DNA of 64,000 nt, from the NCBI GenBank assembly GCA_964385825.1, contig CAYLPX010000001.1, positions 8,124 through 72,123 of the forward strand, written 5' to 3'. This DNA is from an uncultured Candidatus Saccharibacteria bacterium. GTDB taxonomy: Bacteria > Patescibacteriota > Minisyncoccia > Phycocordibacterales > JAKFXT01. The notes beneath the pieces were generated by a model. That model did no database searches and had not been told where the DNA came from. It worked only from the letters and a program-made list of their open reading frames with translations. Of the stretch, positions 40,076 to 53,980 are shown in pieces. A program made the translations under genes and the position numbers. Numbering within the stretch: position 1 is the stretch's first letter; every line of letters begins with the position of its first letter.

Positions 40076-41440
40076 CTAGTTGATATGGAGGAATCCTTTT
40101 TGATTGAGAAGTAGGGGGATAATACCGATTGCTATTCCACCAATTCCAACAATAACGGTAATGGTGTCAAAGGTGTGTATGCTGTAAAGGGCTATGAAAA
40201 AAAGGAACAACCCACTACCAGCTGGCCAAAAAATATGAGTAATAGATTGCCAAAAACCTTTGGTTAAAAGGTTGCGAAAATGCCATGCACAAGCAAGGCC
40301 AGTAAGGCCGAGGTAGAAACAGATTTGAAATCCAAGCGCTGTTATAGAGTCTTCTAGAATAATATTAATGGTTGGCAAGTAAGAGGAAATAAAAAGGAGT
40401 AAAAGCCCAGCTGCCCAAATAAACAAAATCGCAATATACGGTGTCTGCCATTGTGGGTGGAGTCGTGAGTAACGAGGATGAAGGGCGCCGGCACGTCCTT
40501 TTGCAAAGAGAGTACGGGTAAATTGAAGAATTTGAGTCTCCACTGTCCCAACGGTACTAAGTAGCACGGCAATGATAGCAACATATCCCCATGTTTTGCC
40601 AAATAGTTTTTCCGCAATAGCAAAGATGATGTTGGTGTTGTAATGCTGTATTTCAGCATCTGTTAATCCAAGGAGGGTAATGACGATGAATAATAGAAAG
40701 AAACAGATGAGGAAGATCATGGTCCAAAAAGTTGCGCGGCCCGGAGTTCGTTCTCTGTCTTTAGTCTCTTCACTTAAGTTCATAGTAACGTCCCAGCCAT
40801 AGTAGAAGAAAATAGCAATAAGAGCCCCGCTCGCAAATAATTGAGGTGAAAAATTAAAGGGGGAGAACCATTGCCAAGAAAATGTGTGGGTAGCAATATG
40901 TGGGAATACCATAAAGCTACCTACCATAATGGCAAGTAAAATAATGCCCTCAATGATAGTCATGAGTACTTGAACAAAACTAGTTAGTTTTATTCCCTTG
41001 ATAACCACTGCGCAGATAAAAGTAAGCCATAGTGCAGCGATAGCTGTTACCCAATGCACGTTGTTCATGAGATCTGGTTTTATGATAAGGAGTGTTGCAT
41101 TTGCAGCAGGAATCATAGCTGAAACCATGAAGATACAACAAAGAACTAGGAGTGCCCAACCTGCGAAGAATCCCCATGTTTTACCGAAGACCATAGAGAC
41201 CCAGGCAAAGGAGGTACCCGCATTGGCAGAAGCTTTATTGAGATTAATAAAGGCAAAAGCAATACCGAACATAATAAGCCCGCAAAGCAAAATGCTTGCG
41301 GGGGAGAATATACCGGCCGTTGCAATAATGGTAGAAGTAGTGATTTCAATACTATAAGCCGGAGCAGTACCGGCTATACCCATAATGATTGACTCAGTGA
41401 GCCCTAGTGCATTTTTTGCCAGCTTGGGGGTGTTTTCCAT
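40076..41440 (-). CDS. APC-superfamily amino acid permease
   Basis: 454 aa, about 12 TM helices. Confidence 0.7.
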   Translation of the reverse strand: MENTPKLAKNALGLTESIIMGIAGTAPAYSIEITTSTIIATAGIFSPASILLCGLIMFGIAFAFINLNKASANAGTSFAWVSMVFGKTWGFFAGWALLVLCCIFMVSAMIPAANATLLIIKPDLMNNVHWVTAIAALWLTFICAVVIKGIKLTSFVQVLMTIIEGIILLAIMVGSFMVFPHIATHTFSWQWFSPFNFSPQLFASGALIAIFFYYGWDVTMNLSEETKDRERTPGRATFWTMIFLICFFLLFIVITLLGLTDAEIQHYNTNIIFAIAEKLFGKTWGYVAIIAVLLSTVGTVETQILQFTRTLFAKGRAGALHPRYSRLHPQWQTPYIAILFIWAAGLLLLFISSYLPTINIILEDSITALGFQICFYLGLTGLACAWHFRNLLTKGFWQSITHIFWPAGSGLFLFFIALYSIHTFDTITVIVGIGGIAIGIIPLLLNQKGFLHIN

Positions 41441-41518
41441 ACAGAAGCGAATGTTCTAAGTATACAAAACATTTAAAACAAGGGAAGCATAATGATTTTG
41501 CACTTCAAAATAATATGA

Positions 41519-42655
41519 TTATGTTGCTTGGTAACCCATTTTTTCGTGCTTGCGTGCTGTAAGTGTTGGGAAAGAAACTCGGACCGTGGTTCCACTTCCT
41601 AAGGCACTTTTTATAAATATTTTCCCGTTATGAATTTTGACTAATTCATTAACTATGGCGAGCCCTAAACCACTACCACCATGGACTCTGGCTCGCGATG
41701 GGTCTGCGCGGTAAAAAGGTTCAAATACATGAGTCAGATCTTTTTCAGAAATTCCAACACCCGAATCTTCGATCCTTAGTTCCACGAAATTATCATAGGT
41801 TGGCTCTATAATTATTTGAATAGACCCATTTTTTGGCGTGTACTGAATTGCATTTTTAAGTAAGTTAATAATGATTTGTCCAACTCCAACCGGCTTTCCT
41901 TCAATTATATTATTACCATTCTTTTTAATAGTAATCTGTAAATTCTTACTTTTTATAAGTTCGGATAATTTTTCTACAATATCATCAATAATGAAACCCA
42001 AGTCAACGTGTTCAAACTTAATATGTTCCGCCCGTACGAGGACATTAAAAGAAAGTAAGTTGTTAATGGTATCCGAAATGCGCTCCAACTCCTCAATGTT
42101 ACTTAAAAGGGTCTTTCGCACGTACCAATCTTCAAAGTTTTTCTGCATTAAAGAAACCTCCATACTGGTTTTCATAACTGCAAGTGGGGTGCGAAGCTCA
42201 TGAGCAATGTTGCCAATAAATTGTTTCTGCATTTTAAGACTGTTGCGCGCGGGTATAAGGGTGACACGGGCCACGAGATAACCAAAAAGTGCTGTGATAC
42301 CAACAATAATTCCTGCTATTTTAAAAAGGTTTCGTGTTTTTAGATAGGTGTATCCACTTGCAATTGAGTTGAGAGCTGTTGGAGTAGTGACTCCGTTTTT
42401 GTTCACATTATTGATAATTTCTTCAAACAGAACTTTACTGATGTCGTGGTAGAGATAGTCAAAGGCAAAACCAATTGTGATTAGTATGAATATGATAAAA
42501 GATATCTGAAGCGCTATCACATTGCATTCAGTGCGAAAGAAAAAATCAAAGCGGTATCTATTGGCGAAGTCGGTAACCCAACCCTCTAACCGTTTCAAAA
42601 ACGTCTTCGTATTTATTAAGCTGTAGTTTTTTTCTAAGATTTTTAACATGTACAT
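41519..42655 (-). CDS. sensor histidine kinase
   Basis: H-box IAHELRTPLAVM, G-box GGSGLGLAIVNELVKIHNGKIFI; overlaps upstream RR by about 98 nt, so true start may be a downstream non-ATG codon. Confidence 0.85.
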   Translation of the reverse strand: MYMLKILEKNYSLINTKTFLKRLEGWVTDFANRYRFDFFFRTECNVIALQISFIIFILITIGFAFDYLYHDISKVLFEEIINNVNKNGVTTPTALNSIASGYTYLKTRNLFKIAGIIVGITALFGYLVARVTLIPARNSLKMQKQFIGNIAHELRTPLAVMKTSMEVSLMQKNFEDWYVRKTLLSNIEELERISDTINNLLSFNVLVRAEHIKFEHVDLGFIIDDIVEKLSELIKSKNLQITIKKNGNNIIEGKPVGVGQIIINLLKNAIQYTPKNGSIQIIIEPTYDNFVELRIEDSGVGISEKDLTHVFEPFYRADPSRARVHGGSGLGLAIVNELVKIHNGKIFIKSALGSGTTVRVSFPTLTARKHEKMGYQAT

Positions 42656-43232
42656 CTATTACATTACTAAAAGATTCATAATTGAAATCCCATAGGTTAC
42701 TTAATAATTCTTCACGATTAATGACCCGTGTTGGTCTTCGCATAAAGTATTCCAGCAAATAAAACTCTTTGATGGTAAGTGGTATTTCCTTACCCCCACG
42801 AGTCACAGAGTGTGCTGCTGTGTCTAGGGAGATACCAGCAAACTCAAGGGTGGCTGGTGTTATGGTGGCTGGTCTTCTTGATAAAGCCGTAATACGAGCA
42901 AGGAGCTCATCAAAAGAAAACGGTTTTACTAAGTAATCATCAGCTCCACTTAACAGGAGTTTTACTTTAACTTCAATTTCATCCCGAGCGGTGAGGATAA
43001 GAACGGGAACGGTAATATTTAGTGCTCTAATATTTTTGCAAATAGTTTCTCCATCCATGGTTGGCAACATGAGGTCAAGAAGGATAAGGTCATAATCTTT
43101 TGGACGATTAACAATACGTGTTTCAGCTATCTTTCCATCAGAGATTATGTCGGTAATGTACCCCTTGAGTTTCAAACCTTCAGCCAACGTTTCAGCTAAT
43201 TTTGTTTCATCTTCAACGATCAGTATTTTCAT
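42558..43232 (-). CDS. OmpR-family response regulator
   Basis: MKILIVEDE, DLILLDLMLP receiver; winged-helix C-terminus. Confidence 0.9.
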   Translation of the reverse strand: MKILIVEDETKLAETLAEGLKLKGYITDIISDGKIAETRIVNRPKDYDLILLDLMLPTMDGETICKNIRALNITVPVLILTARDEIEVKVKLLLSGADDYLVKPFSFDELLARITALSRRPATITPATLEFAGISLDTAAHSVTRGGKEIPLTIKEFYLLEYFMRRPTRVINREELLSNLWDFNYESFSNVIDVHVKNLRKKLQLNKYEDVFETVRGLGYRLRQ

Positions 43233-43554
43233 TAGATTTGGGGCATAGTGGTTCGTAATAGTCCCCAGAGACCGCTCGAGCTAATTGGGATCTATAAGAT
43301 AGAGATATTTAGTGACTATCACAGTAAGACTACCATAGTTAAATGAAGTTTGGATGAAGATATGGGGTTCAGGGCTTCATCTTCGCTACATCATTGAATT
43401 GTTAAAGTTTTACTAGTGAGCAGAAGGGTAAGGAGTATGTCGTGTAATTTACATAATATAAAAGTCGGTTCCGAATAGTAATACTGTCGGAAAAAATTAA
43501 AGAAAACTACTTATCTTAATGCTCACCTAAATTACAAATTATTATTTAAAATAT

Positions 43555-44226
43555 ATGAAAATTATTACAACAAAGAAGATATTTATGGATATAGGGTTAA
43601 TTCTTGCTTTTGCTTTTGGAATCATGAGTATCCCTTTTCTAGTAAGTGCCGCAACCCTTGATCGTGAGTTACAGATGGGTATGTCAGGATCGGATGTTTC
43701 TTCACTTCAGACGTTTCTTGCACAAGACAACACTATTTACCCACAGGGACTAGTAACAGGATATTTCGGTTCTCTTACTAAGTCAGCAGTTTCAAACTTC
43801 CAGGCTCGCAATGGTATTGCAACGGTTGGTCGTGTGGGACCCCAGACACTTCCTGTTATCAATGCTCAAATGGCAAATGGTATGAATGGTGGAAGTACTA
43901 GTGTAGGTGGAGACATTTATGCCCCTGTTATTTCAAACACAAGTGTAAATACAACTGGTAATACTGCAAATGTGTCTTGGAATACAAATGAATATGCTCG
44001 TGGAGTTGTCTACTATGGAACTAGTTATCTGATGGAATATGAACTACCACATTCAGTGACTATAACAGGTGGTAATACAGCTTCATCTGACAACAATCTT
44101 CGAACTTCACAAAATGTGTCTATAAGTGGTTTGCAGTCAAACAGTACATACTTTTACATTGTGTATGTGACTGATGGATCAGGAAATGTGAGTTTAACCC
44201 TCCCTGCTACCTTCCATACAAACTAA
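43555..44226 (+). CDS. secreted protein with N-terminal peptidoglycan-binding domain and FN3-like domain
   Basis: Signal anchor; PG_binding_1-like SSLQTFLAQDNTIYPQGLVTGYFGSLTKSAVSNFQ; FN3-like ANVSWNTNEYARGVVYYG. Confidence 0.65.
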   Translation: MKIITTKKIFMDIGLILAFAFGIMSIPFLVSAATLDRELQMGMSGSDVSSLQTFLAQDNTIYPQGLVTGYFGSLTKSAVSNFQARNGIATVGRVGPQTLPVINAQMANGMNGGSTSVGGDIYAPVISNTSVNTTGNTANVSWNTNEYARGVVYYGTSYLMEYELPHSVTITGGNTASSDNNLRTSQNVSISGLQSNSTYFYIVYVTDGSGNVSLTLPATFHTN

Positions 44227-44235
44227 TAAACTCAT

Positions 44236-44280
44236 AAAAAAAACCGCTCATTGTTATAACAGTAGAGCGGTTTTCTTTTA
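44236..44280 (+). terminator. rho-independent terminator
   Basis: aaaaaaaaCCGCTCattgttataacagtaGAGCGGttttctttt. Confidence 0.65.
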
Positions 44281-44300
44281 GAAAAATAACTAATAAAAAA

Positions 44301-44789
44301 ATGTCAGAAAATAATACAATTATCGGTGTCATTGTGGTATTAATCATAGTTGCAGGTGGTTTCTTGTGGTGGGTTAATGGGGATACTTCTAAGGGAGCTG
44401 TGGTTGTGACGGCCACAACAACCGTAGCAACAACTACTACTAACTCTACCGATACGGAAGTAGATCCTGTTGAAAAGGCATACACGCAAACAAGAGTACT
44501 TGAAAAGGGGGTATATGTAACTATAGTAAATCTTACGGAAGAAGGTTTTGTGCCACCGATTGTGTACATCAACAAGGGCGAGGCTGTTCGCTTTATCAAC
44601 AAGGCTACAGATTCTATGAGAGTTGCTACCAATGAGTTCCAGAGTATCCCTCTCTACGCAGGATTCGGGCAGGAAAAGAGTGTTGGTAAGGGGGGAACCT
44701 ACGCTTTCACCTTTATGCAAAAGGGGGTTTGGGGATACAACAATATGAATGGCACTCCAAAGGTATATGGAGTGGTATATGTAAGATAG
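44301..44789 (+). CDS. hypothetical membrane-anchored protein with Thr-rich linker and beta-rich ectodomain
   Basis: N-terminal TM, TATTTVATTTTNSTDT linker. Confidence 0.45.
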   Translation: MSENNTIIGVIVVLIIVAGGFLWWVNGDTSKGAVVVTATTTVATTTTNSTDTEVDPVEKAYTQTRVLEKGVYVTIVNLTEEGFVPPIVYINKGEAVRFINKATDSMRVATNEFQSIPLYAGFGQEKSVGKGGTYAFTFMQKGVWGYNNMNGTPKVYGVVYVR

Positions 44790-45009
44790 TGTAAAGACTA
44801 TGCTTACTACCATCGCGGTCGTATTACTTCTCTTGTGGTTCCTTGGTATTGTAACTTCCTATACTGTATATGGTTTTATCCATATTCTGTTGGTAGTTGC
44901 AGTGATACTATTTCTTCTAAGAATTATTAGGGGAGACAGACTCTCTTAGATAAGGACAGGTAGTTATAACATAAAACCCCTCTTTGGTTAGCCAATGAGG
45001 GGTTTTATG

Positions 45010-45858
45010 TTAGCGGTTAAGTATGGTAACAAAATCCTCAAAATTATCACTCACAAGATAGCCACGGGATTTAAAAATATCATCAGCGCTATGGTACACA
45101 CCTTTATAGGTTGTTCGACTGGTTATGTACCCGGCTTCCTTAACTAGGGCTTCAAGTTCAGGACTAGTATATCCAAAGGGAGAAGCGAAATGGTTAACAG
45201 GCTTACCAAGCTTCTCCTCTAAGATTCTTTTGCTTTCGAAAACCTCTGCTTTCATTTCTGCGGGTGTTAGCTTACTGAAGTAGGGATGGGAAACACTGTG
45301 GCTCTCAATAGGCATTCCAGCATCACTCATTTCTTTCACCTGATCCCAAGAGAGAAAATGTTTTTTGCCGATTGGGTTGGTGTAAATATAAAAAGTAGCT
45401 ATGAAATGATATTTTTTAAGTAAGGGAAAGGCGTAGGTGTATTGGTTGTGCCATCCATCATCAAAACCTAGGACAACCGGCTTTTGTACAGGTGAGGTAG
45501 TACCTGTCGCTATATAGTGTGCCACATCATCCATGGTAACAGGGGTGTAATCATTAATCGCAAGGTAGGCTAGTTGTTTGCGGAAAAGTTCAGGAGTGAT
45601 GTCGTAACGGTCTTGTGATGCAGATTCTCCTTGCTCATATGGCTTAACGCTATGATAGATAAAAATGGGGATTTTGACCGCCCCGATAGTGACAGTGTTT
45701 TCTGGTTCTGCCTGGAAAAGAAACTCTTCAAGGAGCGCTCCCTCAGGAATAGTATCTTCGTCGGCAATAATATTTTGTTTTGCATCAAGGTGCCCAATAA
45801 AAAGAGCACTACCAAGTAGTACTAAAATTGCAATAATAAGCGCTATATTTCTTCGCAT
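45010..45858 (-). CDS. polysaccharide deacetylase (CE4 / NodB homology)
   Basis: VVLGFDDGWHNQ ... ESHSVSHPYF motifs. Confidence 0.85.
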   Translation of the reverse strand: MRRNIALIIAILVLLGSALFIGHLDAKQNIIADEDTIPEGALLEEFLFQAEPENTVTIGAVKIPIFIYHSVKPYEQGESASQDRYDITPELFRKQLAYLAINDYTPVTMDDVAHYIATGTTSPVQKPVVLGFDDGWHNQYTYAFPLLKKYHFIATFYIYTNPIGKKHFLSWDQVKEMSDAGMPIESHSVSHPYFSKLTPAEMKAEVFESKRILEEKLGKPVNHFASPFGYTSPELEALVKEAGYITSRTTYKGVYHSADDIFKSRGYLVSDNFEDFVTILNR

Positions 45859-45916
45859 ATTAAATATGTGAATATAATATCACGAGTCGTCTTTTGTGGT
45901 GGCTATGAGGCTTAAT

Positions 45917-46288
45917 TTATTCATCCCCAACAACCGTCCATTCACTGTAACGAAGCCTCCCTCCAATTTGTAAGTTCAAGTGATGTATAGCACTACCTCT
46001 TTTGAAATAAGCTACACAAATCATGTCTATGCCCGCTCCACAATCTGTAATTTCTGGATAGTCAGTATCTATCACTATTCGCTCAGCTGCTTCTGGGGGA
46101 GTTGGTGGAAGATACACATCCCAACCTTTTTCTAATAGAGCCTCTTTGGTTTCTCGGTAGGTTTGGCCATGTATAAATGAAAAACTTTTTTCATTACCTA
46201 TTACATAGGAGAGACTGAATACCACAATAACTATTATAGCCAACGTTAGTTTTGTAGTATGTCGTGTAATAGGCAGTAATTGAGACAT
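45917..46288 (-). CDS. hypothetical secreted/anchored protein
   Basis: Start set at ATG 46288 (MSQLLPITRHTTKLTLAIIVIVVF signal anchor); track ORF extends to 46420. Confidence 0.35.
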   Translation of the reverse strand: MSQLLPITRHTTKLTLAIIVIVVFSLSYVIGNEKSFSFIHGQTYRETKEALLEKGWDVYLPPTPPEAAERIVIDTDYPEITDCGAGIDMICVAYFKRGSAIHHLNLQIGGRLRYSEWTVVGDE

Positions 46289-46311
46289 GTCGTTTTGTAT
46301 TCCATTTTTAT

Positions 46312-46647
46312 TTAATTCGCAAACGGATAATAGAAACGGACAAGAAAATATATAACGGCAAATGGGATTGGTAACAAGAGCCAGCGGTAGACATACTGCC
46401 AATGCAAGAAAAATCCACAAGCCATAAGTATGCCAGCCAATACGGTGATAGCAGGGAGGGCGAGAAGTGAGAAGTTGATAAACCGTTCAAGTCCAGCAGG
46501 CAAATTAACTCCCGGGCCACTGAAGGCGACAAGTGCAAAATTAAAATAGAACATTGAAGCGGTTGCCACCACCCCCATAAAAAGATATATGTATTTCATT
46601 AGAATATTGTACTTTGTTTTTAGAAGCTGGAAAAGAAGATTAAGCAC
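46312..46647 (-). CDS. small multi-TM membrane protein (paralog of 48823..49152)
   Basis: Shared core LAGxLMxCGFFLxWxxVYxWLLxPIPF with 48823..49152. Confidence 0.5.
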   Translation of the reverse strand: MLNLLFQLLKTKYNILMKYIYLFMGVVATASMFYFNFALVAFSGPGVNLPAGLERFINFSLLALPAITVLAGILMACGFFLHWQYVYRWLLLPIPFAVIYFLVRFYYPFAN

Positions 46648-46705
46648 AGTATTTTCAATAAGTTGTAGTTTTTAAAACCATTTATTTAATTTTGTTGTTT
46701 TTAGT

Positions 46706-46735
46706 ATAAAAAAGCCCCCGCGGAAGCGGGGGGGT
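46706..46735 (-). terminator. GC-clamp intrinsic terminator of 46747..47064 gene
   Basis: minus strand: cacccCCCCGCttccGCGGGGGctttttt. Confidence 0.6.
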
Positions 46736-46746
46736 GGAGTGGACCA

Positions 46747-47064
46747 TCACCTGCGGTAGATGAAAATCCTTTGTTGCGGGGGAGCCCATTGCGGCGCCGG
46801 CTGATAGATCGGCCCGGGGTACATTCCCGTGGCGCCGGCCACTTGCGGCACCTGTGGGTAGTACAGCTGTCCCGGAGCCCGATAAAGCGGCTGCCCTGCG
46901 TACCCTTGCCCAGGATACATGGGCGTGGTGCCGGCGTACGGCTGGTACATCGGCCCATTCGGGATGAACCGCGAGCCTTGATAGTAACGATAACCCTGGG
47001 CTTCCGCGATACTTGCCACGGAAAGCCCGAGGCAGGCGACAGCAACAGCGAGGAACTTGTTCAT
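46747..47064 (-). CDS. small secreted Tyr/Pro/Gln/Gly-rich low-complexity protein (GC-rich gene)
   Basis: Signal peptide MNKFLAVAVACLGLSVASIAEA; YYQG/PMYQPYAG/QGYAGQPLY repeats; AAGGAG SD 7 nt upstream; own promoter and terminator; about 65% GC. Confidence 0.65.
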   Translation of the reverse strand: MNKFLAVAVACLGLSVASIAEAQGYRYYQGSRFIPNGPMYQPYAGTTPMYPGQGYAGQPLYRAPGQLYYPQVPQVAGATGMYPGPIYQPAPQWAPPQQRIFIYRR

Positions 47065-47111
47065 GGAACTCTCCTTTCAAGAGAGTTGGTTTCGAGGGTG
47101 ACCTGTAATTT

Positions 47112-47140
47112 ACAATACGAGTTAGGTGACTTCGTGTCAA
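47112..47140 (-). promoter_or_regulatory. sigma70-like promoter for 46747..47064
   Basis: minus strand TTGACA - 17 nt - TATTGT about 45 nt upstream of ATG. Confidence 0.4.
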
Positions 47141-47186
47141 GACAGTAAAGTGGCTCAAGTTTAGCGAGCTTGGTATAGTACTTATT

Positions 47187-47435
47187 ATGACCGCGAAAAT
47201 TTCAAATGGCGTAGTGCACAAAGTACCCCTCGATTTAGAAAAGGCGATTATTGGAGCGCCTAAGGTAAGAGCTTTGTGGGAAAGTATTACCCCGCTTGCG
47301 CGCAATGAGTGGATTTGTTGGGTTACCTCTGGCAAAAAAGCCGAGACGAGAAATATTCGTATAGAAAAGGCACTTTCAAAAATGAAAGGCGGCATGCGCC
47401 GCCCCTGCTGCTGGGCGGGGTGTACACATCGGTAG
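47187..47435 (+). CDS. YdeI/OmdA (DUF1801-like) family small protein
   Basis: ...WICWVTSGKKAETRNIRIEKALSKMKGG... matches OmdA pattern (WI..AK..ETR.RRI); C-terminus RRPCCWAGCTHR. Confidence 0.5.
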   Translation: MTAKISNGVVHKVPLDLEKAIIGAPKVRALWESITPLARNEWICWVTSGKKAETRNIRIEKALSKMKGGMRRPCCWAGCTHR

Positions 47436-47437
47436 AG
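47402..47437 (+). repeat. 36-bp direct repeat copy 1 (3' end of YdeI-like gene)
   Basis: cccctgctgctgggcggggtgtacacatcggtagag; 34/36 identical to copy at 48258. Confidence 0.8.
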
Positions 47438-47465
47438 GTCCGGCAGTTTTACTTATATAGATACT

Positions 47466-48236
47466 ATGGTTAATAAAAAGATCATACTTAGCCTTATCTT
47501 CATTCTAGTTGTGGGAACATCTATTTTTTTGTATGCGAAAACAACTAGAGTGGTAAAGGAGGAAACTCTTGAAGGGAAAATTTATAAAATTTTTGAAAAA
47601 TACTCAAGTCGAAATTTTGATCCTGTTACTCAAAATAATTTGAACTTTTTTTGGTTGAGCGAATCGGGTGTCACGATTTTTACCAATAAGGGAAGTGGGG
47701 TGGTAATGAAGCTAGTAAAGTATTGTAAAGAAGAGAGTAAGACAAATTATAAAGAAAGTGAGATTGAGGCGCTTTTTAAGGAAGTGGAGAAGGTGATGAT
47801 AGAACAGGGGTATAAGGTGGATGCTGCTAATTCTTCTAATTCATTTAATGATGAAAAGTTTGAGGAGCTGTATGTTCGCGGCTTTGAGAAAAATGGAATT
47901 AAATATACTTTGACATTCAACCCAAGCTGCATTTCCTATACTCCTGACGAACCTCTTTTTCAAGAGGTTGAGTTTGTTACAGACCCTAGTTATTCTCAGC
48001 ATTATCTTGAGCAGAAAGAATATCTCGTTGATTTGGGGTTGTTTAAGAATGGAATTTTAGTTGATAAGGTTATTAATAGCTTTGCTGGTTTACATATTGT
48101 GAGTAGGAATTCTGGCGGTTATTACATGATAGTAAAAAAGGTTGATGGAAAGTGGCAAAAAATTGTAGCAGGTCAAGATGCTGATTGTAGTTATTTAAAA
48201 GAAAGGGGTGTACCAAAAGAGTTTGGATGTAATTAG
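47466..48236 (+). CDS. hypothetical membrane-anchored protein (AT-rich inserted gene)
   Basis: 256 aa, N-terminal TM; markedly AT-rich relative to flanks; bracketed by 36-bp direct repeats. Confidence 0.55.
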   Translation: MVNKKIILSLIFILVVGTSIFLYAKTTRVVKEETLEGKIYKIFEKYSSRNFDPVTQNNLNFFWLSESGVTIFTNKGSGVVMKLVKYCKEESKTNYKESEIEALFKEVEKVMIEQGYKVDAANSSNSFNDEKFEELYVRGFEKNGIKYTLTFNPSCISYTPDEPLFQEVEFVTDPSYSQHYLEQKEYLVDLGLFKNGILVDKVINSFAGLHIVSRNSGGYYMIVKKVDGKWQKIVAGQDADCSYLKERGVPKEFGCN

Positions 48237-48257
48237 CTATTGTAGTTTAATACATCA

Positions 48258-48293
48258 CCCCTGCTGTTGGGCGGGGTGTACGCATCGGTAGAG
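48258..48293 (+). repeat. 36-bp direct repeat copy 2
   Basis: cccctgctgttgggcggggtgtacgcatcggtagag; both differences synonymous in the PCCWAGCTHR* reading frame. Confidence 0.8.
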
Positions 48294-48298
48294 AGAGA

Positions 48299-48763
48299 TT
48301 ACTTTCCATCAAATGCAGCTTGCAGGGTGGCGATATCAAACCTCTTCATTTTTAGAAAGGCTTGCGTTACTCGTCCAATTTTTTCTTTATCGCCAGAAGA
48401 CATCATGGTATCCATTACGGTTGGGACAATTTGCCATGAGAGGCCATATTTATCTTTGATCCATCCACACTGCTCGGCTTCTGGCACCGCTGATAGTTTT
48501 TCGGTGTAGTAGTCAATTTCTGCTTGATCTTCACATCGTATGACAAATGATATTGCTTCGGTGAATTTAAATAGTGGCCCTGCGGTCATGAGACTTAGTT
48601 CCTGGCCAAAGATTTCTAGGGTTGCCATTTCGACATTTCCTGATGGGGTATCAGAAAGAGCCCCGTTGCTGTGCAGTTTTGCATTAGGGAAGACGGATAT
48701 ATAAAAATCAGTAATCTCTTTCAGGTTTTTATCAAACCAGAGGAATGGTGTTATTTTTTTCAT
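48299..48763 (-). CDS. VOC/glyoxalase-superfamily protein (PhnB-like)
   Basis: ITPFLWFDKNLKEITDFY...WGLSWQIVP PhnB-like pattern. Confidence 0.7.
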   Translation of the reverse strand: MKKITPFLWFDKNLKEITDFYISVFPNAKLHSNGALSDTPSGNVEMATLEIFGQELSLMTAGPLFKFTEAISFVIRCEDQAEIDYYTEKLSAVPEAEQCGWIKDKYGLSWQIVPTVMDTMMSSGDKEKIGRVTQAFLKMKRFDIATLQAAFDGK

Positions 48764-48822
48764 ACTATGAGTATAGCAAATTAGAGGTTAAGACTAATTT
48801 TCTTATGTAAGAGTGGAGAAGT

Positions 48823-49152
48823 TTAGTTGAAGGGGAGTGTTAAGCGTAAAATAAGAAATAAAATAATGAACGGGATTGGTGCTAGGAGCCAGCTGTAGAC
48901 ATGTTCCCATTTAAGAAAGAATCCACATACCATCAAAACTCCCGCTAGAATTGCTATACCACAGAGTCCATACAGTGATATGTCTAAAAAACGTGAAAGA
49001 CTACTTGATATGTCACGGCCAGGAATACTAGTTGCAACCAAGAAAAAAGAAATAAAAAATTCGCCAGCGGCTGCAAGAATTCCTAAATATAAATGTAAAA
49101 ACTTCATAAATTTATTTTGCACAATTATACCGTGAGTTGATGGGCCTACCAA
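48823..49152 (-). CDS. small multi-TM membrane protein (paralog of 46312..46647)
   Basis: See paralog; 41-nt overlap with upstream SRPBCC gene. Confidence 0.5.
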   Translation of the reverse strand: MVGPSTHGIIVQNKFMKFLHLYLGILAAAGEFFISFFLVATSIPGRDISSSLSRFLDISLYGLCGIAILAGVLMVCGFFLKWEHVYSWLLAPIPFIILFLILRLTLPFN

Positions 49153-49588
49153 CTATTCTTTTTAATTCATCTATCACCGCCCTTTCCCAGAACTTCATGG
49201 AATACCAGCCAATGAGGGGGCGGGCAACTATACGGAGCCAACGCTTGTGAATCGTGACTTGATAAGTGTAATCAATAGTAGTTCCCTCGGGGTGCGGCGA
49301 GAGTAGAAATTCTTCATGACCCGAAGTTCCAAATTTCGGACTCTCATTATCTGAAATATAGCCTCTTTGGGGGAGGATTTCAGTTTTCATATATACCGGG
49401 AAATTACTTCCAAACGATTTTACCGTTGCATGTATTTCTAACTTATTTCCCTCACATTTTGTGATTTCTAGGGCACTGGCAACTTTTGGGAAATACTCTG
49501 GGAATTTTTCAAAGTCAGTCATTATGTTAAACACCTCAGGTAGTGGTGCTTTAACAAGCCAGGTGGCATGAAGGGTAATATCTTTCAT
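49112..49588 (-). CDS. SRPBCC-superfamily protein (polyketide cyclase/START-like)
   Basis: Length and ...LVKAPLPEVFNIMTDFEKFPEYFP... pattern. Confidence 0.5.
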   Translation of the reverse strand: MKDITLHATWLVKAPLPEVFNIMTDFEKFPEYFPKVASALEITKCEGNKLEIHATVKSFGSNFPVYMKTEILPQRGYISDNESPKFGTSGHEEFLLSPHPEGTTIDYTYQVTIHKRWLRIVARPLIGWYSMKFWERAVIDELKRIVGRPINSRYNCAK

Positions 49589-49703
49589 GTAGGAAGTATA
49601 GCAAAGGAGGGTGGGGGGGGAGAAAAAGAGGTAGGGGCTTTCTATGTTTATTACTGTGGGTAGATGTGAAATGTTTTTTTTAAAATCTTGATATACTTGC
49701 AGT

Positions 49704-49970
49704 ATGCCAGTTGCGAGCTACATTTTTATAATACTTTCTTTATTAGCTCTATTTCCATCAGTAGTTCTATATGGATTTGCGGATGAAGCTGCTCGCGGTG
49801 ACTCAATTAACCTATTCACCGTACTTGTGATTTTTTCACCTCAAATTTTAACTATTGTATCTGTAGTTCTTATCTGTTTTAAAAAAACATCTAAAATTAT
49901 AGTATTTTTGCCGCTTTTTTGTATACCCCCACTATTAGGAACTTTAATCTTTGCCTATTCTTATTATTAA
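49704..49970 (+). CDS. small hypothetical membrane protein
   Basis: ORF track; 2-3 TM helices. Confidence 0.35.
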   Translation: MPVASYIFIILSLLALFPSVVLYGFADEAARGDSINLFTVLVIFSPQILTIVSVVLICFKKTSKIIVFLPLFCIPPLLGTLIFAYSYY

Positions 49971-50023
49971 AAAAGAGCATAGAGATTTTTGGAAATATTC
50001 CTCTGATATGAAGAGATCTTTAG

Positions 50024-50106
50024 AGGGGTAGGGATCTCGACTACCGTCGCGGGTGCTTTTCGATCCCTAACATAAAGGTGTCCCACACCTTTACTCCCGC
50101 GGAGCT
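50024..50106 (-). pseudogene. degenerate tRNA-like remnant (partial duplicate of the adjacent tRNA ends)
   Basis: minus-strand reads AGCUCCGCGGGAG...GUAGUCGAGAUCCCUACCCCUCU; first 10 nt and T-arm-like 3' part resemble the adjacent tRNA 5' and 3' ends; acceptor stem does not close. Confidence 0.3.
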
Positions 50107-50111
50107 TAAAA

Positions 50112-50146
50112 ACAAAAACCACTGGCGTAAGCTAGTGGTTTTTGTT
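50112..50146 (-). terminator. terminator hairpin immediately 3' of the tRNA (centre of about 80-nt palindrome)
   Basis: aaaaaCCACTGGcgtaagCTAGTGGtttttgttttttt; flanked by inverted cccgcggagct / agctccgcggg. Confidence 0.55.
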
Positions 50147-50200
50147 TTTTTGTTTTCTTAGCTCCGCGGGTAGGGATCGAACCTACGACCGACTCGTTAC

Positions 50201-50759
50201 ACAAATTCCTCTATTACTAAAGGGGTGGACTATATCATCATCCTTTTCTTTTTCAAGACTATTGGATGCGAGGCGCTTCGACCTTGTAATTTTACAAGGG
50301 CTACTCCCACTAGGGGATAGTCTCTACACCTTCCGAAATGTTTCTATTTCGGCTTGGCTCGGGATTGCCCGCGCTTTCGCACTAGGGTTTCCCCGAGTTC
50401 ACCTCGTTTTTCAACCAAAATTCCTTTTGGAAGCTGCGTGATGCCGCCATGTATTTCTCTATGACAATTTGCACATATCAGAATGCACTTATCAATTTCT
50501 TGCTTGATTTTTTCTCACGATCGCGTAAGTCCTTTTACGGAAAGACCAAAATCTTTTTTCTTTGGATCAAGGTGGTGAAAATCAAGTGCACCTGAATAGC
50601 GCTTATAGCCACAAATCATACATTTACCGCCCTTATACTCACGGGCCATTTCCCGAAGTCTCTTGCGTCGTTCGGAAACAGCTTTTCGTAAGTATTCAGC
50701 ACGGTCAGCATAGGTTCGTTTTTCTGGCATACTTGCTTAAGTATACCACAAACCTCTCC
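50201..50759 (-). mobile_element. group I intron (IC3-like, tRNA-Leu-intron-type core) carrying an HNH ORF in an expanded P1 loop
   Basis: Core matches cyanobacterial tRNA-Leu(UAA) intron: GGGAAACC, GGCAAUCCCGAGCCAAGCCGAAAUAG, UCGGAAGGUGUAGAGACUA, GGGAGUAGCCCU, AUAGUCC; IGS ACGCAGC just before UUCCAAAAGGAA (P2) can pair with exon GCUGU (G.U at splice site); intron ends in G. Confidence 0.65.
50515..50730 (-). CDS. intron-encoded small HNH endonuclease (putative homing endonuclease)
   Basis: 71 aa; ...GGKCMICGYKRYSGALDFHHLDPKKK... HNH signature; lies within intron. Confidence 0.6.
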   Translation of the reverse strand: MPEKRTYADRAEYLRKAVSERRKRLREMAREYKGGKCMICGYKRYSGALDFHHLDPKKKDFGLSVKGLTRS

Positions 50760-50933
50760 ACAGCGAGCTGCTCTACCGCTGAGCTACCGCGGAGCTAAAA
50801 AAACAATACTTTCTAATTTCAAAGTTCTCTTGGAACGGGGTTATAGTAGCAAAAAAAGGCCAGGGAGGCAAAGGTTGTAATGGAGCCCTATGTGGTAAAA
50901 TATGAGAGTATCCACTAGCTAATTGTATTCATT

Positions 50934-51182
50934 ATGCTCACACTTTTTACAAAAACAGGTTGTCCCTACTGCGCTATGGTTATCCACAAATTAGAAGATC
51001 TCGGCCTTTCATGGGAGGAGAAAAATATAGCTAATGATGAGGTAGCAAGTGAGCTTATTTCACTAGGCGGGAAGCGGCAAGTACCATATTTTATAGACCA
51101 TGATCGCGATACAAAAATGTATGAATCGGGTGATATTGTAGATTATCTAGAGCGAACGTTTGGAGGTAAGAAGCAGGGCTAG
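50934..51182 (+). CDS. glutaredoxin-like protein (NrdH/Grx)
   Basis: CPYC active site, about 80 aa thioredoxin fold. Confidence 0.75.
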   Translation: MLTLFTKTGCPYCAMVIHKLEDLGLSWEEKNIANDEVASELISLGGKRQVPYFIDHDRDTKMYESGDIVDYLERTFGGKKQG

Positions 51183-51202
51183 ATTCCTCTAATTTTCACA
51201 TC

Positions 51203-51439
51203 ATGTACGTTAAGGTGCAGGCAGTAACGAAGGCAAAGGAGGAGAAATTGGAAGAAGTAAAACCTCTATATCTGAAAATATGTGTTAGGGAAAAGCCGGA
51301 GCGTAACCTAGCGAACACTCGTATAGTTTCTATGGTAGCCAGTTTTTACGGGGTGGGGGAGGAGAAGGTTCGCATTATCTCTGGCCATCACCATCACTCT
51401 AAAATGCTGAGCATTTCGGTGAAAAAGGATGAGAAGTGA
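51203..51439 (+). CDS. DUF167/YggU (UPF0235) family protein
   Basis: ...KICVREKPERNLANTRIVSMVASFYGVGEEKVRIISGHHHHSKMLSI matches YggU pattern. Confidence 0.5.
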   Translation: MYVKVQAVTKAKEEKLEEVKPLYLKICVREKPERNLANTRIVSMVASFYGVGEEKVRIISGHHHHSKMLSISVKKDEK

Positions 51440-51479
51440 TCGTGATAGAATGTAAGTATTAAAGGCTAACGGTAATCCT

Positions 51480-51845
51480 ATGCGTATACAAACAAAAGCA
51501 ACCAATACTACTCTTACACCAAGTATTGAGAACTATATTGCAAAGAAAGTTGAAGGATTGGAAAGATTGATCAGACAGAGTGATAGCAGTGCTAGTCTTT
51601 CCGTTGAAGTTGCGCGCACAACCGAGCATCATAAAAAGGGAGACATTTTCCGGGCAGAGTTTAACCTCCACACTAAAGAGGGAGATTTCCATGCTGTGTC
51701 AGAACGTAAGGATATTTACACAGCATTAGACGAGGTAAAAGATGAGTTGCTTGATGCCTTTAAAACAAAAAAGGGAAAGAAAATGCGACTTATACGCAAA
51801 GGGCAGTTGAAAGTTAAGGAAGTTGTGCGACAATTCTATCAATAA
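51480..51845 (+). CDS. hpf: ribosome hibernation promoting factor / RaiA (S30AE family)
   Basis: MRIQTKATN...LTPSIENYIAKKVEGLERL...FRAEFNLH typical. Confidence 0.85.
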   Translation: MRIQTKATNTTLTPSIENYIAKKVEGLERLIRQSDSSASLSVEVARTTEHHKKGDIFRAEFNLHTKEGDFHAVSERKDIYTALDEVKDELLDAFKTKKGKKMRLIRKGQLKVKEVVRQFYQ

Positions 51846-51865
51846 TAGCTTAATCCAATTTCTTC

Positions 51866-52531
51866 ATGTTAAAAAGTAAGGTTTCTTTTATTGCTGCATG
51901 GTCCGCTATTGCCGCCGCATCAGCATTCTGTCTTTATACGGCTGGTCTCTTGTATTTTTTCAGTCAGACATTAGTATACGCGGATGACATCACTTATAAA
52001 TCACATGTGGCCTCCGGTCCACTCAAAACATTCACAGGTATGGTTACAGTAGAAACAAATTACGGTACGATTAAGTTTGAATTACTTCCTGCAGATGCAC
52101 CAAACACGGTACAGAACTTTACTCGCCTTGCAACACAGCAATTTTTTGATGGGACACGCTTCCACCGTGTTATTAAGGGCTTTATGATTCAGGGCGGTGA
52201 TCCACAAAGTAAGGACGCATCACTCATAGAACGCTGGGGAACCGGTGGTCCTGGATATGCTTTTGCGGACGAGATTAATAAGGGAAGTGCGCTCTATGCA
52301 AACGGATATCCTCGAGGAACTGTAGCTATGGCTAATTCAGGGCCAAACACTAATGGTAGCCAATTCTTTATCATGCAAGCTGATAATATGTTGCCCCCAC
52401 TTTACACCATCTTTGGTAAGGTAGTTTCTGGACTTGAGGTGGTAGATAAAATTGCATCAGTCAAAACAACTGGTCAACCAAAAGACCGACCACTTACTGA
52501 TGTACTCGTGAAGAAGGTAACAGTGGAGTAA
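51866..52531 (+). CDS. cyclophilin-type peptidyl-prolyl cis-trans isomerase with N-terminal membrane anchor
   Basis: HRVIKGFMIQGGDP, GTVAMANSGPNTNGSQFFI. Confidence 0.9.
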   Translation: MLKSKVSFIAAWSAIAAASAFCLYTAGLLYFFSQTLVYADDITYKSHVASGPLKTFTGMVTVETNYGTIKFELLPADAPNTVQNFTRLATQQFFDGTRFHRVIKGFMIQGGDPQSKDASLIERWGTGGPGYAFADEINKGSALYANGYPRGTVAMANSGPNTNGSQFFIMQADNMLPPLYTIFGKVVSGLEVVDKIASVKTTGQPKDRPLTDVLVKKVTVE

Positions 52532-53416
52532 TTAGTTACCGCGTAGAAAATCAGTATAATCCATCTCGCGTCCTCCCTCTGGGAGGACGCGTTTGATTTG
52601 GAAACTGTTATTTTCCCAAAAAGCCTGTTTGACTATGACGCGCACAGGTTTGTCTTTGCGCGTGGTGAAGAAATAGGTGCCAGGCCAGTCTTGATAGGCA
52701 AGGTATTTCAAATAGTTTTTCCGGCCATCATCTTCGAGTTTTATTTCACCATCTTCTTTTTTAATCATTTTGCAAATAGTAGCTTTATCGCTGTTCTGTG
52801 GCTCTGGCGTGAGTTCACCAGAAATGTAAGGGTTGATACTGTGAGCCAGAAGTCTGCCGCCAATGTCAGCCAAGAGTCGCATGAGGACTGGAGCGGGCAT
52901 GGGGAGCGCTCTTTCGTGGATTTTCTCTTGTGCAAGAATCGGCCCACTGTCCATTCCTTCATCAAGGAGCATAATTGAGACGCCAACTTCCTTATCGTCA
53001 TGCAAGATCTGCGCCTCAATGGGGGAGGGGCCGCGATACTTCGGGAGGAGGGATGGATGCACATTGAGAACCCCGTGCTTTGGGATGGAGAGCACCGCTT
53101 TTGGTAGAAGTTTTCCGTAGGAGGCTACTACAAAAAAGTCATATGATTTTTTCTGTAGCTCTGTTCTGGCTACTGTATCTAATTTTTCTGGTTGGAAAAC
53201 GGGAATTTTATTTTCGAGCGCCCAGAGTTTAATGGGTGGGGGAGTCATTTCTTGGTTTCTACCTTTTGGCCGGTCTGGTGGACAGACTACTAACTCCGGG
53301 GTTAGTCCCTCACGTTTAAGCTCGGTAGCAACACCAACTGAGAAGGTATCGGTGCCGAAGAATACCCATGGCAGGTTAACAGGAATAGGCTCGTCTAAGG
53401 TATCAAAGTCGTACAT
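52532..53416 (-). CDS. fmt: methionyl-tRNA formyltransferase
   Basis: VVASYGKLLPKAVLSIPKHGVLNVHPSLLPKYRGPSPIEAQIL. Confidence 0.9.
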   Translation of the reverse strand: MYDFDTLDEPIPVNLPWVFFGTDTFSVGVATELKREGLTPELVVCPPDRPKGRNQEMTPPPIKLWALENKIPVFQPEKLDTVARTELQKKSYDFFVVASYGKLLPKAVLSIPKHGVLNVHPSLLPKYRGPSPIEAQILHDDKEVGVSIMLLDEGMDSGPILAQEKIHERALPMPAPVLMRLLADIGGRLLAHSINPYISGELTPEPQNSDKATICKMIKKEDGEIKLEDDGRKNYLKYLAYQDWPGTYFFTTRKDKPVRVIVKQAFWENNSFQIKRVLPEGGREMDYTDFLRGN

Positions 53417-53419
53417 AGA

Positions 53420-53980
53420 TTATGAGCGTTTAGTTCTAACTTCTCGTACTTTTTCTGGTGGAATCTCTTCTATATCTTTGGCCTTGTCTATAAAAAGAAC
53501 ACCATTCAAATGATCTGTTTCGTGCTGGAAAACTTGTGCAAGTAGGCCCGAAGCTCCCATAACAAAAGGAGTACCATGTTCGTTATAGGCTTTTATCTTT
53601 GCTTTTTTAGAACGAGAAACTTTGCCGTAGAGCCAGCGCACCGAAAGGCATCCCTCTTCCACCCATTTCTTATCGCGGGAAAGTTTTAGTATTTCAGGGT
53701 TGATAAAAACAAGATCATCTTTAGAGTCCCCTGTTTCAAGCGGTCTTTCATTGTCTCCTTCGTCATCAAAAAGTTCAAATACTTTGTGAGATACCACGAA
53801 AATGCGAAGCGACACGCCGATTTGAGGCGCAGCTATAGCCACCCCATCATCTTGTGTGGCTAGAGCCTTTTTCATGTCACTGATTATCTTTTGGATAATA
53901 GGGCTTTCTATCTCACTTACCTTCACCTCTTTAGCTGTGTCTCGTAGAAGGGCAGTGTCTTTACCGACTATTTTAACCAT
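53420..53980 (-). CDS. def: peptide deformylase
   Basis: GIGLAAPQ-like GVAIAAPQIG, EGCLSV, QHETDHLNG. Confidence 0.9.
   Translation of the reverse strand: MVKIVGKDTALLRDTAKEVKVSEIESPIIQKIISDMKKALATQDDGVAIAAPQIGVSLRIFVVSHKVFELFDDEGDNERPLETGDSKDDLVFINPEILKLSRDKKWVEEGCLSVRWLYGKVSRSKKAKIKAYNEHGTPFVMGASGLLAQVFQHETDHLNGVLFIDKAKDIEEIPPEKVREVRTKRS

What the first reader, a model, noticed from the sequence alone, without database searches (positions are those of the whole stretch)
47402..48293. 36-bp direct repeats bracketing an AT-rich inserted gene at the 3' end of a YdeI/OmdA-like gene
The last 36 nt of the YdeI-like gene, encoding ...PCCWAGCTHR*, recur 856 bp downstream after an AT-rich 256-aa membrane-anchored ORF. 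The two copies differ at 2 positions, both synonymous in that frame. The second copy has no upstream coding context, with a stop 20 codons upstream. This looks like a site-specific cassette insertion with duplication of the attachment site, or replacement of a tandem YdeI paralog. No integrase is nearby.
Basis: seen in the sequence. Interest (0 to 1): 0.55.

Follow-up and report, generated by a model that had tools for sequence, protein, structure and literature searches.

The report
Stranded gene tip beside an inserted gene
In this candidate-phyla-radiation bacterium, the last 36 bases of a small conserved gene (ydeI) occur a second time 856 bases downstream as a dead fragment, which is most simply the scar of a single recombination event that placed one extra gene there; I found no sign of a new mobile-element system.

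Summary
A 36-nt direct repeat lies at 47402-47437 and 48258-48293. It matches at 34 of 36 positions and both differences are synonymous. There are only two copies in the window, and none of 100 shuffles gave two.

Copy 1 is the true 3' end of an intact 82-aa YdeI/OmdA gene. Its PCCWxGCxHR* tail is present in all 81 homologous loci examined. Copy 2 is non-coding and lies 5 nt from the stop of a convergent VOC gene.

The 256-aa gene between the copies is not an ORFan. It belongs to an uncharacterised Patescibacteria family (131 remote homologues; AlphaFold2 model pLDDT 93, no fold match). It is complete and is only mildly AT-rich.

None of the 81 other ydeI loci has a family member next to it or a second tail copy. 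The two copies resemble each other more than either resembles any other sampled ydeI end. So the arrangement is derived, recent and unique to this lineage.

I found no integrase, attC-like structure, terminal inverted repeats, further copies or viral match.

Best reading: a one-off insertion that displaced the old ydeI tip, probably by homology-anchored illegitimate recombination. Site-specific integration cannot be excluded, because no close relative with an empty site exists in the databases. Interest is low to moderate.

The parts
47187..47435 (+). Intact ydeI/omdA-like gene (82 aa) ending in the family's conserved ...RRPCCWAGCTHR* tail.
   Evidence: Pfam PF13376 at E=1e-16. There are 8000+ homologues at 62-85% identity, all where named from Patescibacteria and of the same 81-85 aa length. 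The tail is present in 81/81 loci.
47388..47403 (.). GC-rich palindrome GGCGGC-ATGC-GCCGCC inside ydeI (codons G-G-M-R-R). The left edge of the repeat (47402) falls in its 3' arm, so it is a possible breakpoint hotspot.
   Evidence: Read from the sequence. It was picked up as a minus-strand hairpin at 47385-47406. The link to the breakpoint is inference only.
47402..47437 (+). Repeat copy 1: the coding 3' tip of ydeI (last 11 codons, the stop and 2 nt).
47438..47465 (+). 28-nt spacer between copy 1 and the start of the inserted gene. With copy 1 it can form a hairpin followed by TTTT.
   Evidence: MFE -30.7 kcal/mol, z -1.5, not significant.
47466..48236 (+). Complete 256-aa gene: N-terminal membrane anchor plus a folded alpha/beta domain. 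It belongs to an uncharacterised Patescibacteria protein family. This is the 'cargo' between the repeats.
   Evidence: The word-indexed search found only itself. Exhaustive phmmer found 131 homologues, 50 of them at E<=1e-10, with 21-36% identity. No Pfam, NCBIfam or PHROG assignment. AlphaFold2 with an alignment gave pLDDT 93.3 and pTM 0.84. No Foldseek hit at E<=0.001 in PDB or BFVD.
48237..48257 (+). 21-nt tail of the insert. It is part of a weak AT-rich hairpin (48226-48256) that ends exactly at copy 2.
   Evidence: inverted repeat I8.
48258..48293 (+). Repeat copy 2: a stranded, non-coding ydeI 3' tip. There is no ydeI-like sequence upstream of it, and it ends 5 nt before the stop codon of the convergent VOC gene.
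48299..48763 (-). Convergent VOC/PhnB-like gene (154 aa). VOC genes are recurrent neighbours of ydeI in other Patescibacteria.
   Evidence: Pfam PF06983 at E=2.6e-34. VOC-ydeI adjacency seen in L017, L111, L115, L169 and L098.

Best explanation
The repeat is the scar of one recent recombination event in this lineage. Before the event, ydeI(+) ended a few bases from the convergent VOC(-) gene. The event placed a complete gene (the 256-aa membrane-anchored protein of a widespread but uncharacterised Patescibacteria family) directly after an intact ydeI. The old last-11-codon tip of ydeI was left stranded, non-coding, next to VOC.

The mechanism I consider most likely is homology-anchored illegitimate recombination, also called 3'-tip displacement. 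In this model, incoming DNA from a close relative carried ydeI followed by the 256-aa gene. It paired with the resident ydeI on the left. On the right it was joined illegitimately, inside the resident ydeI just after a GC-rich palindrome. The resident body of ydeI was replaced and its tip survived.

Copy 2 probably has no function of its own beyond possibly contributing a small hairpin in the 62-nt convergent intergenic gap.

What is shown: the repeat, its coding identity, the sharp edges, the uniqueness of the arrangement and the completeness of both genes. What is inferred: the direction of the event and the recombination mechanism.
For: 1. Copy 1 is the genuine conserved C-terminus of the family: PCCWxGCxHR followed by a stop, or by a stop within 3 codons, in most of the 81 loci. 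Copy 2 encodes the identical peptide but has a stop 20 codons upstream and no ydeI-like sequence before it.

2. The two copies differ at 2/36 positions. The 81 other ydeI 3' ends differ from copy 1 at 5 or more positions (mean 11.1). The copies therefore share a very recent origin, either within this lineage or from a very close relative.

3. Identity ends 2 nt after the stop codon and both differences are synonymous. That is expected if both copies were once ends of functional ydeI genes. It is not expected for an arbitrary staggered-cut duplication.

4. The adjacency is derived. No member of the 256-aa family (profile HMM) lies in any of 81 ydeI loci or 80 VOC loci. Homologues of the 256-aa gene sit in unrelated contexts: after dnaJ, between secY and adk, and after a PEGA gene.

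5. VOC next to ydeI is a recurrent neighbourhood elsewhere, which fits copy 2 beside VOC being the older tip.

6. The surrounding region is a compositional mosaic. The gene immediately upstream of ydeI has GC3 of 0.71 against a window mean of 0.39 +/- 0.07. This interval has therefore taken up foreign DNA more than once.

7. No recombinase, terminal inverted repeats, attC-like fold or extra copies were found.

8. Precedent: orphan 3' tips left by displacement through homology-facilitated illegitimate recombination are described for rhs, cdiA and T6SS effector loci (PMC5361080, read).
Against: No empty site, donor or intermediate was found, so the direction and mechanism are inferred only.

The model needs a donor in which ydeI was followed by the 256-aa gene. 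No such arrangement exists in the 81 sampled ydeI loci.

The insert is strikingly minimal: 28 nt before and 21 nt after a complete ORF. That looks more cassette-like than a random illegitimate joint would predict.

The synonymous-only pattern has p of about 0.1 under neutrality, and two nucleotides of identity after the stop can be chance.

A site-specific integration that rebuilds the gene end predicts the same pattern.
Confidence: 0.5

Rival explanations
1. Site-specific integration. A small circular element or cassette carried a 36-bp copy of the ydeI 3' end as its attachment site. A recombinase encoded elsewhere integrated it, duplicating the core site and rebuilding the gene end. This is how integrative elements that target the 3' ends of tRNA or protein genes behave.
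For: Direct repeats bracket a compact single-gene insert with sharp edges. The repeat reaches to the end of the target gene, and its differences are silent, as expected if the element must restore the gene. The insert has only 28 nt and 21 nt of non-coding sequence around a complete ORF.
Against: No integrase or transposase lies from about 6 kb upstream of ydeI to about 5.7 kb downstream of the 256-aa gene; the only mobile-element gene is an HNH ORF inside a group I intron 2 kb away. There are only two copies in 64 kb. None of 54 ydeI loci with at least 1 kb downstream has a duplicated tail. The degenerate 36-mer and ydeI are absent from 2.9 million viral contigs. Homologues of the cargo gene elsewhere are not repeat-flanked. 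The hairpin in the repeat is not better than shuffles.
Confidence: 0.2
2. Decayed tandem paralogue. The genome once had two ydeI copies. The body of the second copy was deleted or overwritten, perhaps when the 256-aa gene arrived, and only its last 36 nt remain.
For: Copy 2 is in-frame ydeI coding sequence with only synonymous differences, and similarity ends at the stop codon. One other locus, L027, does carry two adjacent ydeI-like segments.
Against: No other ydeI-like remnant exists anywhere in the window, even at tblastn E<=10. The left edge is sharp rather than a decay gradient. 80 of 81 other loci have a single ydeI. This rival overlaps the best explanation in treating copy 2 as a dead gene tip; it differs only in what preceded it.
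Confidence: 0.15
3. Transposase-type insertion with a 36-bp target-site duplication produced by staggered cuts, followed by neutral drift.
For: Direct repeats bracket an insert.
Against: The insert has no terminal inverted repeats and no transposase. From general knowledge, 36 bp is far longer than usual target-site duplications of 2-14 bp. The repeat ends essentially at the stop codon and both changes are silent; under this model that is a coincidence, with joint probability roughly 0.01-0.02 (my estimate: the 0.08-0.13 times about 0.14, an assumed chance that a randomly placed repeat boundary falls within a few nt of the stop codon).
Confidence: 0.03
4. Copy 2 is kept because it is functional, for example as a bidirectional terminator or RNA hairpin between the convergent 256-aa and VOC genes. 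On this reading its resemblance to the ydeI end is maintained by selection or gene conversion.
For: Copy 2 fills 36 of the 62 nt between two convergent stop codons. In its context it can form a hairpin (CACCCC...GGGGTG) of about 9 bp with one bulge.
Against: Fold energies are not significantly better than shuffles: z is -1.8 on the plus strand and -2.3 on the minus strand for 81-nt contexts, and -0.45 to -1.3 for the 36-mers. There is no T-run, and the terminator scan did not call it on either strand. There is no Rfam match. The hairpin is a by-product of the codons for PCCWAG. Function would not explain 34/36 identity including the stop codon.
Confidence: 0.05

Closest known systems
C-terminal (3'-tip) displacement leaving orphan gene ends, as in rhs, cdiA and T6SS effector-immunity loci, attributed to homology-facilitated illegitimate recombination (PMC5361080; the papers by Jackson 2009, de Vries & Wackernagel 2002 and Prudhomme 2002 are cited there)
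   Same: A conserved gene serves as the homologous anchor. New DNA is inserted directly after or within its 3' part. The previous 3' end is pushed downstream and survives as a non-coding orphan fragment. No dedicated recombinase is needed.
   Different: In those systems the displaced tips are long, variable toxin domains with immunity genes, and they accumulate in arrays. Here the displaced piece is only 36 nt, encodes the same peptide as the new tip, occurs once, and the cargo is a single gene of unknown function. No toxin or immunity signature was found (PHROGs was searched; PADLOC was not run). The mechanism itself is inferred, not shown.
Integrative elements (prophages, ICEs, genomic islands) that target the 3' end of a tRNA, tmRNA or protein-coding gene and carry a copy of that end in attP (general knowledge)
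   Same: Direct repeats consist of the 3' end of the target gene. The gene stays intact after insertion. The repeat ends near the end of the gene.
   Different: Such elements are kilobases long and encode an integrase next to one repeat. Here the insert is 820 bp with one non-recombinase gene. No integrase lies from about 6 kb upstream of ydeI to about 5.7 kb downstream of the 256-aa gene, and ydeI ends show no recurrence as a target.
Integron gene cassettes (general knowledge)
   Same: A single, tightly packed ORF of about 0.8 kb that may lack its own promoter, with a recombination-site-like repeat at its 3' end.
   Different: There is no IntI, no attI, no attC structure (R''-L''/L'-R' imperfect palindrome of 57-141 nt) and no array. 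Integron cassettes are not bracketed by 36-bp direct repeats of a neighbouring gene's coding end.

Membership tests
YdeI/OmdA family (Pfam PF13376), for gene 47187-47435 | Significant match to the OmdA profile above the gathering score. | tested here: met
   61 bits against a cut-off of 25.6, E=1e-16, residues 12-67.
YdeI/OmdA family (Pfam PF13376), for gene 47187-47435 | Full length and C-terminal tail as in the short Patescibacteria subfamily. | tested here: met
   The gene is 82 aa against 81-85 aa in the top 120 homologues. The PCCWxGCxHR tail is in 81/81 loci.
Integron cassette / attC site | An attC of about 57-141 nt with paired R''/L'' and L'/R' cores forming a bulged hairpin. | tested here: not met
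   The repeat holds only a 7-bp hairpin, z -0.45 and -1.3 against shuffles. GTTGGGC occurs in copy 2 only and its inverse core GCCCAAC is absent upstream (sequence).
Integron cassette / attC site | IntI integrase and attI nearby, or an array of cassettes with attC sites. | tested here: not met
   No integrase is annotated in window 41186-53957. There are only two copies of the repeat in 64 kb.
Integrase-mediated integrative element at the 3' end of a gene | Direct repeats (attL/attR) made of the target gene's 3' end. | tested here: met
Integrase-mediated integrative element at the 3' end of a gene | A tyrosine or serine recombinase encoded inside the element, next to an att site. | tested here: not met
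   The 820-bp insert holds one ORF with no recombinase similarity in Pfam, NCBIfam or PHROGs.
Integrase-mediated integrative element at the 3' end of a gene | The same site is used repeatedly in related genomes, and empty sites exist. | tested here: inconclusive
   0 of 54 more distant ydeI loci with at least 1 kb downstream show a duplicated tail. No close relative of this lineage is available to show an empty site.
Transposable element with target-site duplication | Terminal inverted repeats and a transposase; a short duplication. | tested here: not met
   No inverted repeat pairs the insert ends. No transposase was found. The duplication would be 36 bp.
3'-tip displacement by homology-facilitated illegitimate recombination | An orphan fragment that is homologous to the 3' part of the upstream conserved gene, is non-coding and lies downstream of newly acquired DNA. 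| tested here: met
3'-tip displacement by homology-facilitated illegitimate recombination | A donor arrangement (conserved gene followed by the new gene) exists in another lineage; there is microhomology at the illegitimate joint. | tested here: not met
   No sampled ydeI locus has the 256-aa family downstream. The joint cannot be analysed without donor and recipient sequences.

The most novel reading that the evidence does not exclude
The sequence encoding the invariant YdeI tail (PCCWxGCxHR*) could be a dedicated landing site for very small, integrase-less single-gene cassettes in Patescibacteria. These would be moved in trans by an unrecognised recombinase, making the 856-bp unit (36-mer plus one gene) a new kind of minimal mobile cassette. 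This is not excluded. Only 64 kb of this genome and no close relatives could be examined, and the insert is unusually compact.
Probability: 0.05. Interest if true: 0.7.

Novelty: new member of a known kind. Interest (0 to 1): 0.22.

Why it matters
If the best reading is right, this is a clean small example of how reduced Patescibacteria genomes gain single genes. A highly conserved gene serves as a recombination anchor and a short datable scar is left behind. It also flags two things that are uncharacterised: a widespread, confidently folding, membrane-anchored protein family with no Pfam entry and no fold match, and the invariant Cys-rich CCWxGCxHR tail of the short YdeI proteins. It does not open a long-standing question. 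It would do so only if the 36-mer proved to be a reused attachment site.

Tried and rejected
**Empty-site search**
- A GTDB-representative scan with the adjacent VOC protein returned 80 loci. Only L017 shares any synteny (SRPBCC-VOC-YdeI), and there ydeI is in the opposite orientation.
- Exact-protein look-ups for YdeI, the 256-aa protein, VOC and the neighbouring membrane protein returned only contigs of the same population. They are identical apart from 2 SNPs and 2 small indels (1-2 nt), all outside the repeats.
- The lineage-specific neighbour memB has no homologue other than itself in 5.8 billion proteins.

**Recurrence test**
- 80 metagenomic ydeI loci plus L017 were screened at protein level (2 or fewer substitutions in the tail) and at DNA level (9 or fewer of 36 mismatches, both strands). 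There were no second copies.

**Viral origin**
- The degenerate 36-mer and the YdeI protein have no match in viral contigs.
- The family alignment A1 was too divergent for a locus scan.
- The only PHROG match of the cargo protein is a marginal one at E=0.0065.

**RNA element**
- Rfam at gathering threshold found nothing at the repeats.
- Folds of both copies and their contexts are not significantly better than shuffles.
- The terminator scan does not call copy 2.

**Cargo function**
- Pfam, NCBIfam and PHROGs gave nothing.
- Foldseek against PDB and BFVD gave no hit at E<=0.001.

**Other checks**
- Island at the nearby tRNA: the tRNA 3' end is not duplicated anywhere in the window.
- 'ORFan' status of the 256-aa gene: suggested, then rejected by the exhaustive search.
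- Flanking repeats around five homologues of the cargo gene: none were found. The only shared motif is a TATAGT promoter-like box.

Full report
**1. The observation**

It matches at 34 of 36 positions with 856 nt spacing. Allowing 3 mismatches on both strands, these are the only two copies in the 64-kb window, and no dinucleotide shuffle produced two. It is the only long, high-identity repeat in the window.

Copy 1 is the last 11 codons, the stop and 2 further nt of ORF 47187-47435 (82 aa), which matches Pfam OmdA/YdeI (PF13376) at E=1e-16. The two differences are TGC/TGT and ACA/ACG, both silent. Copy 2 read in the same frame gives HHPCCWAGCTHR*, with a stop 20 codons before the Pro and no ydeI-like sequence ahead of it. 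Identity stops abruptly at both edges.

The same arrangement, base for base in the repeats, is present in 14-17 contigs assembled independently from several JGI and SRA samples. It is therefore not an assembly artefact.

**2. The organism and the ydeI gene**

The 82-aa protein has thousands of homologues at 62-85% identity. All have the same length, and those that carry a name are labelled Patescibacteria, Parcubacteria, Kaiserbacteria and similar. The window (43% GC) therefore comes from a candidate-phyla-radiation bacterium.

In 80 metagenomic ydeI loci plus one genomic locus, the tail PCCWxGCxHR is present in every case. It is normally followed at once by the stop. So copy 1 is the genuine, strongly constrained C-terminus. 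It lies outside the Pfam model, which ends at residue 67.

**3. The gene between the copies**

ORF 47466-48236 looked like an ORFan in the word-indexed search, but an exhaustive phmmer search found 131 cluster representatives at E<=0.001 and 50 at E<=1e-10. Their identity to the window protein is 21-36% in the 46-sequence alignment, and most align over nearly the full length.

The family has no Pfam, NCBIfam or PHROG assignment. With a 46-sequence alignment AlphaFold2 gives a confident model: pLDDT 93, pTM 0.84, an N-terminal transmembrane helix and a mixed alpha/beta domain. That model has no Foldseek match at E<=0.001 in PDB or BFVD. It is a real, complete gene of unknown function.

Its composition is only mildly unusual: GC is 0.34, but GC3 of 0.32 compares with a window mean of 0.39 +/- 0.07.

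Homologues sit in unrelated chromosomal contexts:
- after grpE-dnaK-dnaJ;
- between secY and adk in the ribosomal-protein operon;
- after a PEGA/SH3 gene.

None of them is flanked by repeats.

**4. Is the arrangement ancestral or derived?**

A profile HMM of the 256-aa family finds no member in any of the 81 other ydeI loci or the 80 VOC loci. No other ydeI locus has a second copy of its own tail. This was tested at protein level and at DNA level (9 or fewer of 36 mismatches, both strands). 54 of the loci have at least 1 kb of downstream sequence.

The two window copies differ at 2 positions. The 81 other ydeI ends differ from copy 1 at 5 or more positions, with a mean of 11.1. The duplication is therefore recent, lineage-specific and derived.

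VOC/PhnB-like and SRPBCC genes are recurrent neighbours of ydeI in other Patescibacteria: L017, L111, L115, L169 and L098. This fits the idea that the tip abutting VOC (copy 2, 5 nt from the VOC stop codon) marks the older position of the gene end.

The interval is a compositional mosaic. The gene just upstream of ydeI (46747-47064, minus strand) has GC3 of 0.71 and a perfect terminator, so it is clearly foreign. The whole block lies between two paralogous small membrane-protein genes with 47% aa identity.

**5. What kind of event?**

I found nothing that marks a dedicated mobile system:
- No integrase or transposase in window 41186-53957, according to the Pfam annotations of the called genes.
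- No terminal inverted repeats on the insert.
- No attC-like fold. The repeat holds a 7-bp hairpin that is a by-product of the PCCWAG codons, with z -0.45 to -1.3.
- No Rfam hit.
- No viral-contig match to the degenerate 36-mer or to YdeI.
- No duplicated tRNA end, although a tRNA gene lies 1.9 kb away.

A transposase-type 36-bp target duplication is unlikely. The repeat ends essentially at the stop codon and both changes are silent. The silent changes alone have p of 0.08-0.13. Combined with an assumed chance of about 0.14 for the boundary position, my rough joint estimate is 0.01-0.02.

Those two features are expected in either of two cases. In the first, both copies were once ends of functional ydeI genes (donor and resident alleles, or paralogues). 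In the second, a site-specific element carried a gene-restoring att copy.

The left edge of the repeat falls in the 3' arm of a perfect GC palindrome (GGCGGC-ATGC-GCCGCC, 47388-47403). This is a plausible breakpoint for an illegitimate joint, but that is inference.

The best precedent is 3'-tip displacement through homology-facilitated illegitimate recombination. That process leaves orphan gene ends downstream of newly acquired DNA in rhs, cdiA and T6SS loci (PMC5361080).

I therefore favour a one-off, homology-anchored insertion (0.5). The alternatives are site-specific integration in trans (0.2), a decayed tandem paralogue (0.15), a functional hairpin (0.05) and a transposon-type duplication (0.03).

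The compactness of the insert (28 nt and 21 nt around a complete ORF) and the absence of any sampled donor-type arrangement of ydeI followed by the 256-aa gene count against my preferred mechanism. They keep the cassette reading alive.

**6. What could not be done**

The decisive empty-site comparison failed for lack of relatives. The GTDB-representative scan with the adjacent VOC gene gave one partly syntenic locus only (L017), and there ydeI is inverted. The lineage-specific neighbour has no homologue but itself. All contigs carrying the exact proteins belong to one near-clonal population. Only 64 kb of the genome could be scanned for further copies of the 36-mer.

**7. Verdict**

Copy 2 is a stranded duplicate of the ydeI coding tip beside a later-arriving gene. 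There is no positive evidence for an attachment site or cassette system. This is a new instance of a known kind of recombination scar and is of low to moderate interest. The by-products are more useful than the scar itself: an uncharacterised, well-folding Patescibacteria protein family, the invariant Cys-rich YdeI tail, and an intron-split tRNA.

Noticed in passing
window 50159-50800 (- strand): A tRNA gene is split by a group I intron (Rfam RF00028, 70 bits, 50207-50492). An HNH homing-endonuclease ORF (50515-50730, PHROG HNH at E=1e-13) lies between the tRNA 5' half and the Rfam intron core. The tRNA 5' half (GCTCCGCGGTAGCTCAGCGGTAGAGCAGCTCGCT...) and 3' half (...GGTCGTAGGTTCGATCCCTACCCGCGGAGCTA) can be read by eye. 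ARAGORN reports no tRNA in the whole window. The anticodon was not resolved. A long hairpin follows at 50096-50170.
   Followed up: partly
window 46747-47064 (-), terminator 46715-46732: A 105-aa secreted, P/Q/Y/G-rich low-complexity protein gene has 62% GC and GC3 of 0.71 in a 43% GC genome (more than 4 SD above the mean GC3). It is followed by a perfect GC hairpin and T-run. It looks like a recent acquisition from a GC-rich donor, immediately upstream of ydeI.
   Followed up: partly
window 46312-46647 (-) and 48823-49152 (-): Two paralogous small membrane-protein genes (47% aa identity) flank the whole ydeI/VOC block. Neither has a Pfam hit. The second (memB) has no homologue other than itself in the 5.8-billion-protein search.
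   Followed up: partly
L192 3001-3948; L182 4001-4801; L179 4001-4780: Homologues of the 256-aa protein are wedged into otherwise highly conserved operons in other Patescibacteria: between secY and adk, directly after grpE-dnaK-dnaJ, and after a PEGA/SH3 gene. The family is unannotated, folds confidently (pLDDT 93) and has no fold match at E<=0.001 in PDB or BFVD.
   Followed up: partly
window 47388-47435 and 81 loci (L017, L093-L172): The short Patescibacteria YdeI proteins all end in an invariant Cys-rich tail, RRPCCWxGCxH(R)*. The tail lies outside the Pfam OmdA model. It could be a metal-binding or redox motif. No solved structure matches the protein by sequence.
   Followed up: no
L017 1-2800; L111, L115, L169, L098: There is a recurrent neighbourhood of small SRPBCC, VOC/PhnB-like and YdeI genes in Patescibacteria, usually VOC followed by YdeI on the same strand. 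In the window ydeI is inverted relative to this pattern.
   Followed up: partly
window ~48619-48661 (inside the VOC gene): Several independent assemblies (L003, L005, L007, L176) break their contigs within about 40 nt of each other inside the VOC gene. This hints at a co-occurring variant or paralogue in those samples. It is unexplained.
   Followed up: no
window 47524-47530: One assembly (L186, SRR23702459) has a 1-nt length difference in the T-run near the 5' end of the 256-aa gene. This gives the shorter 235-aa gene call (P0001).
   Followed up: yes
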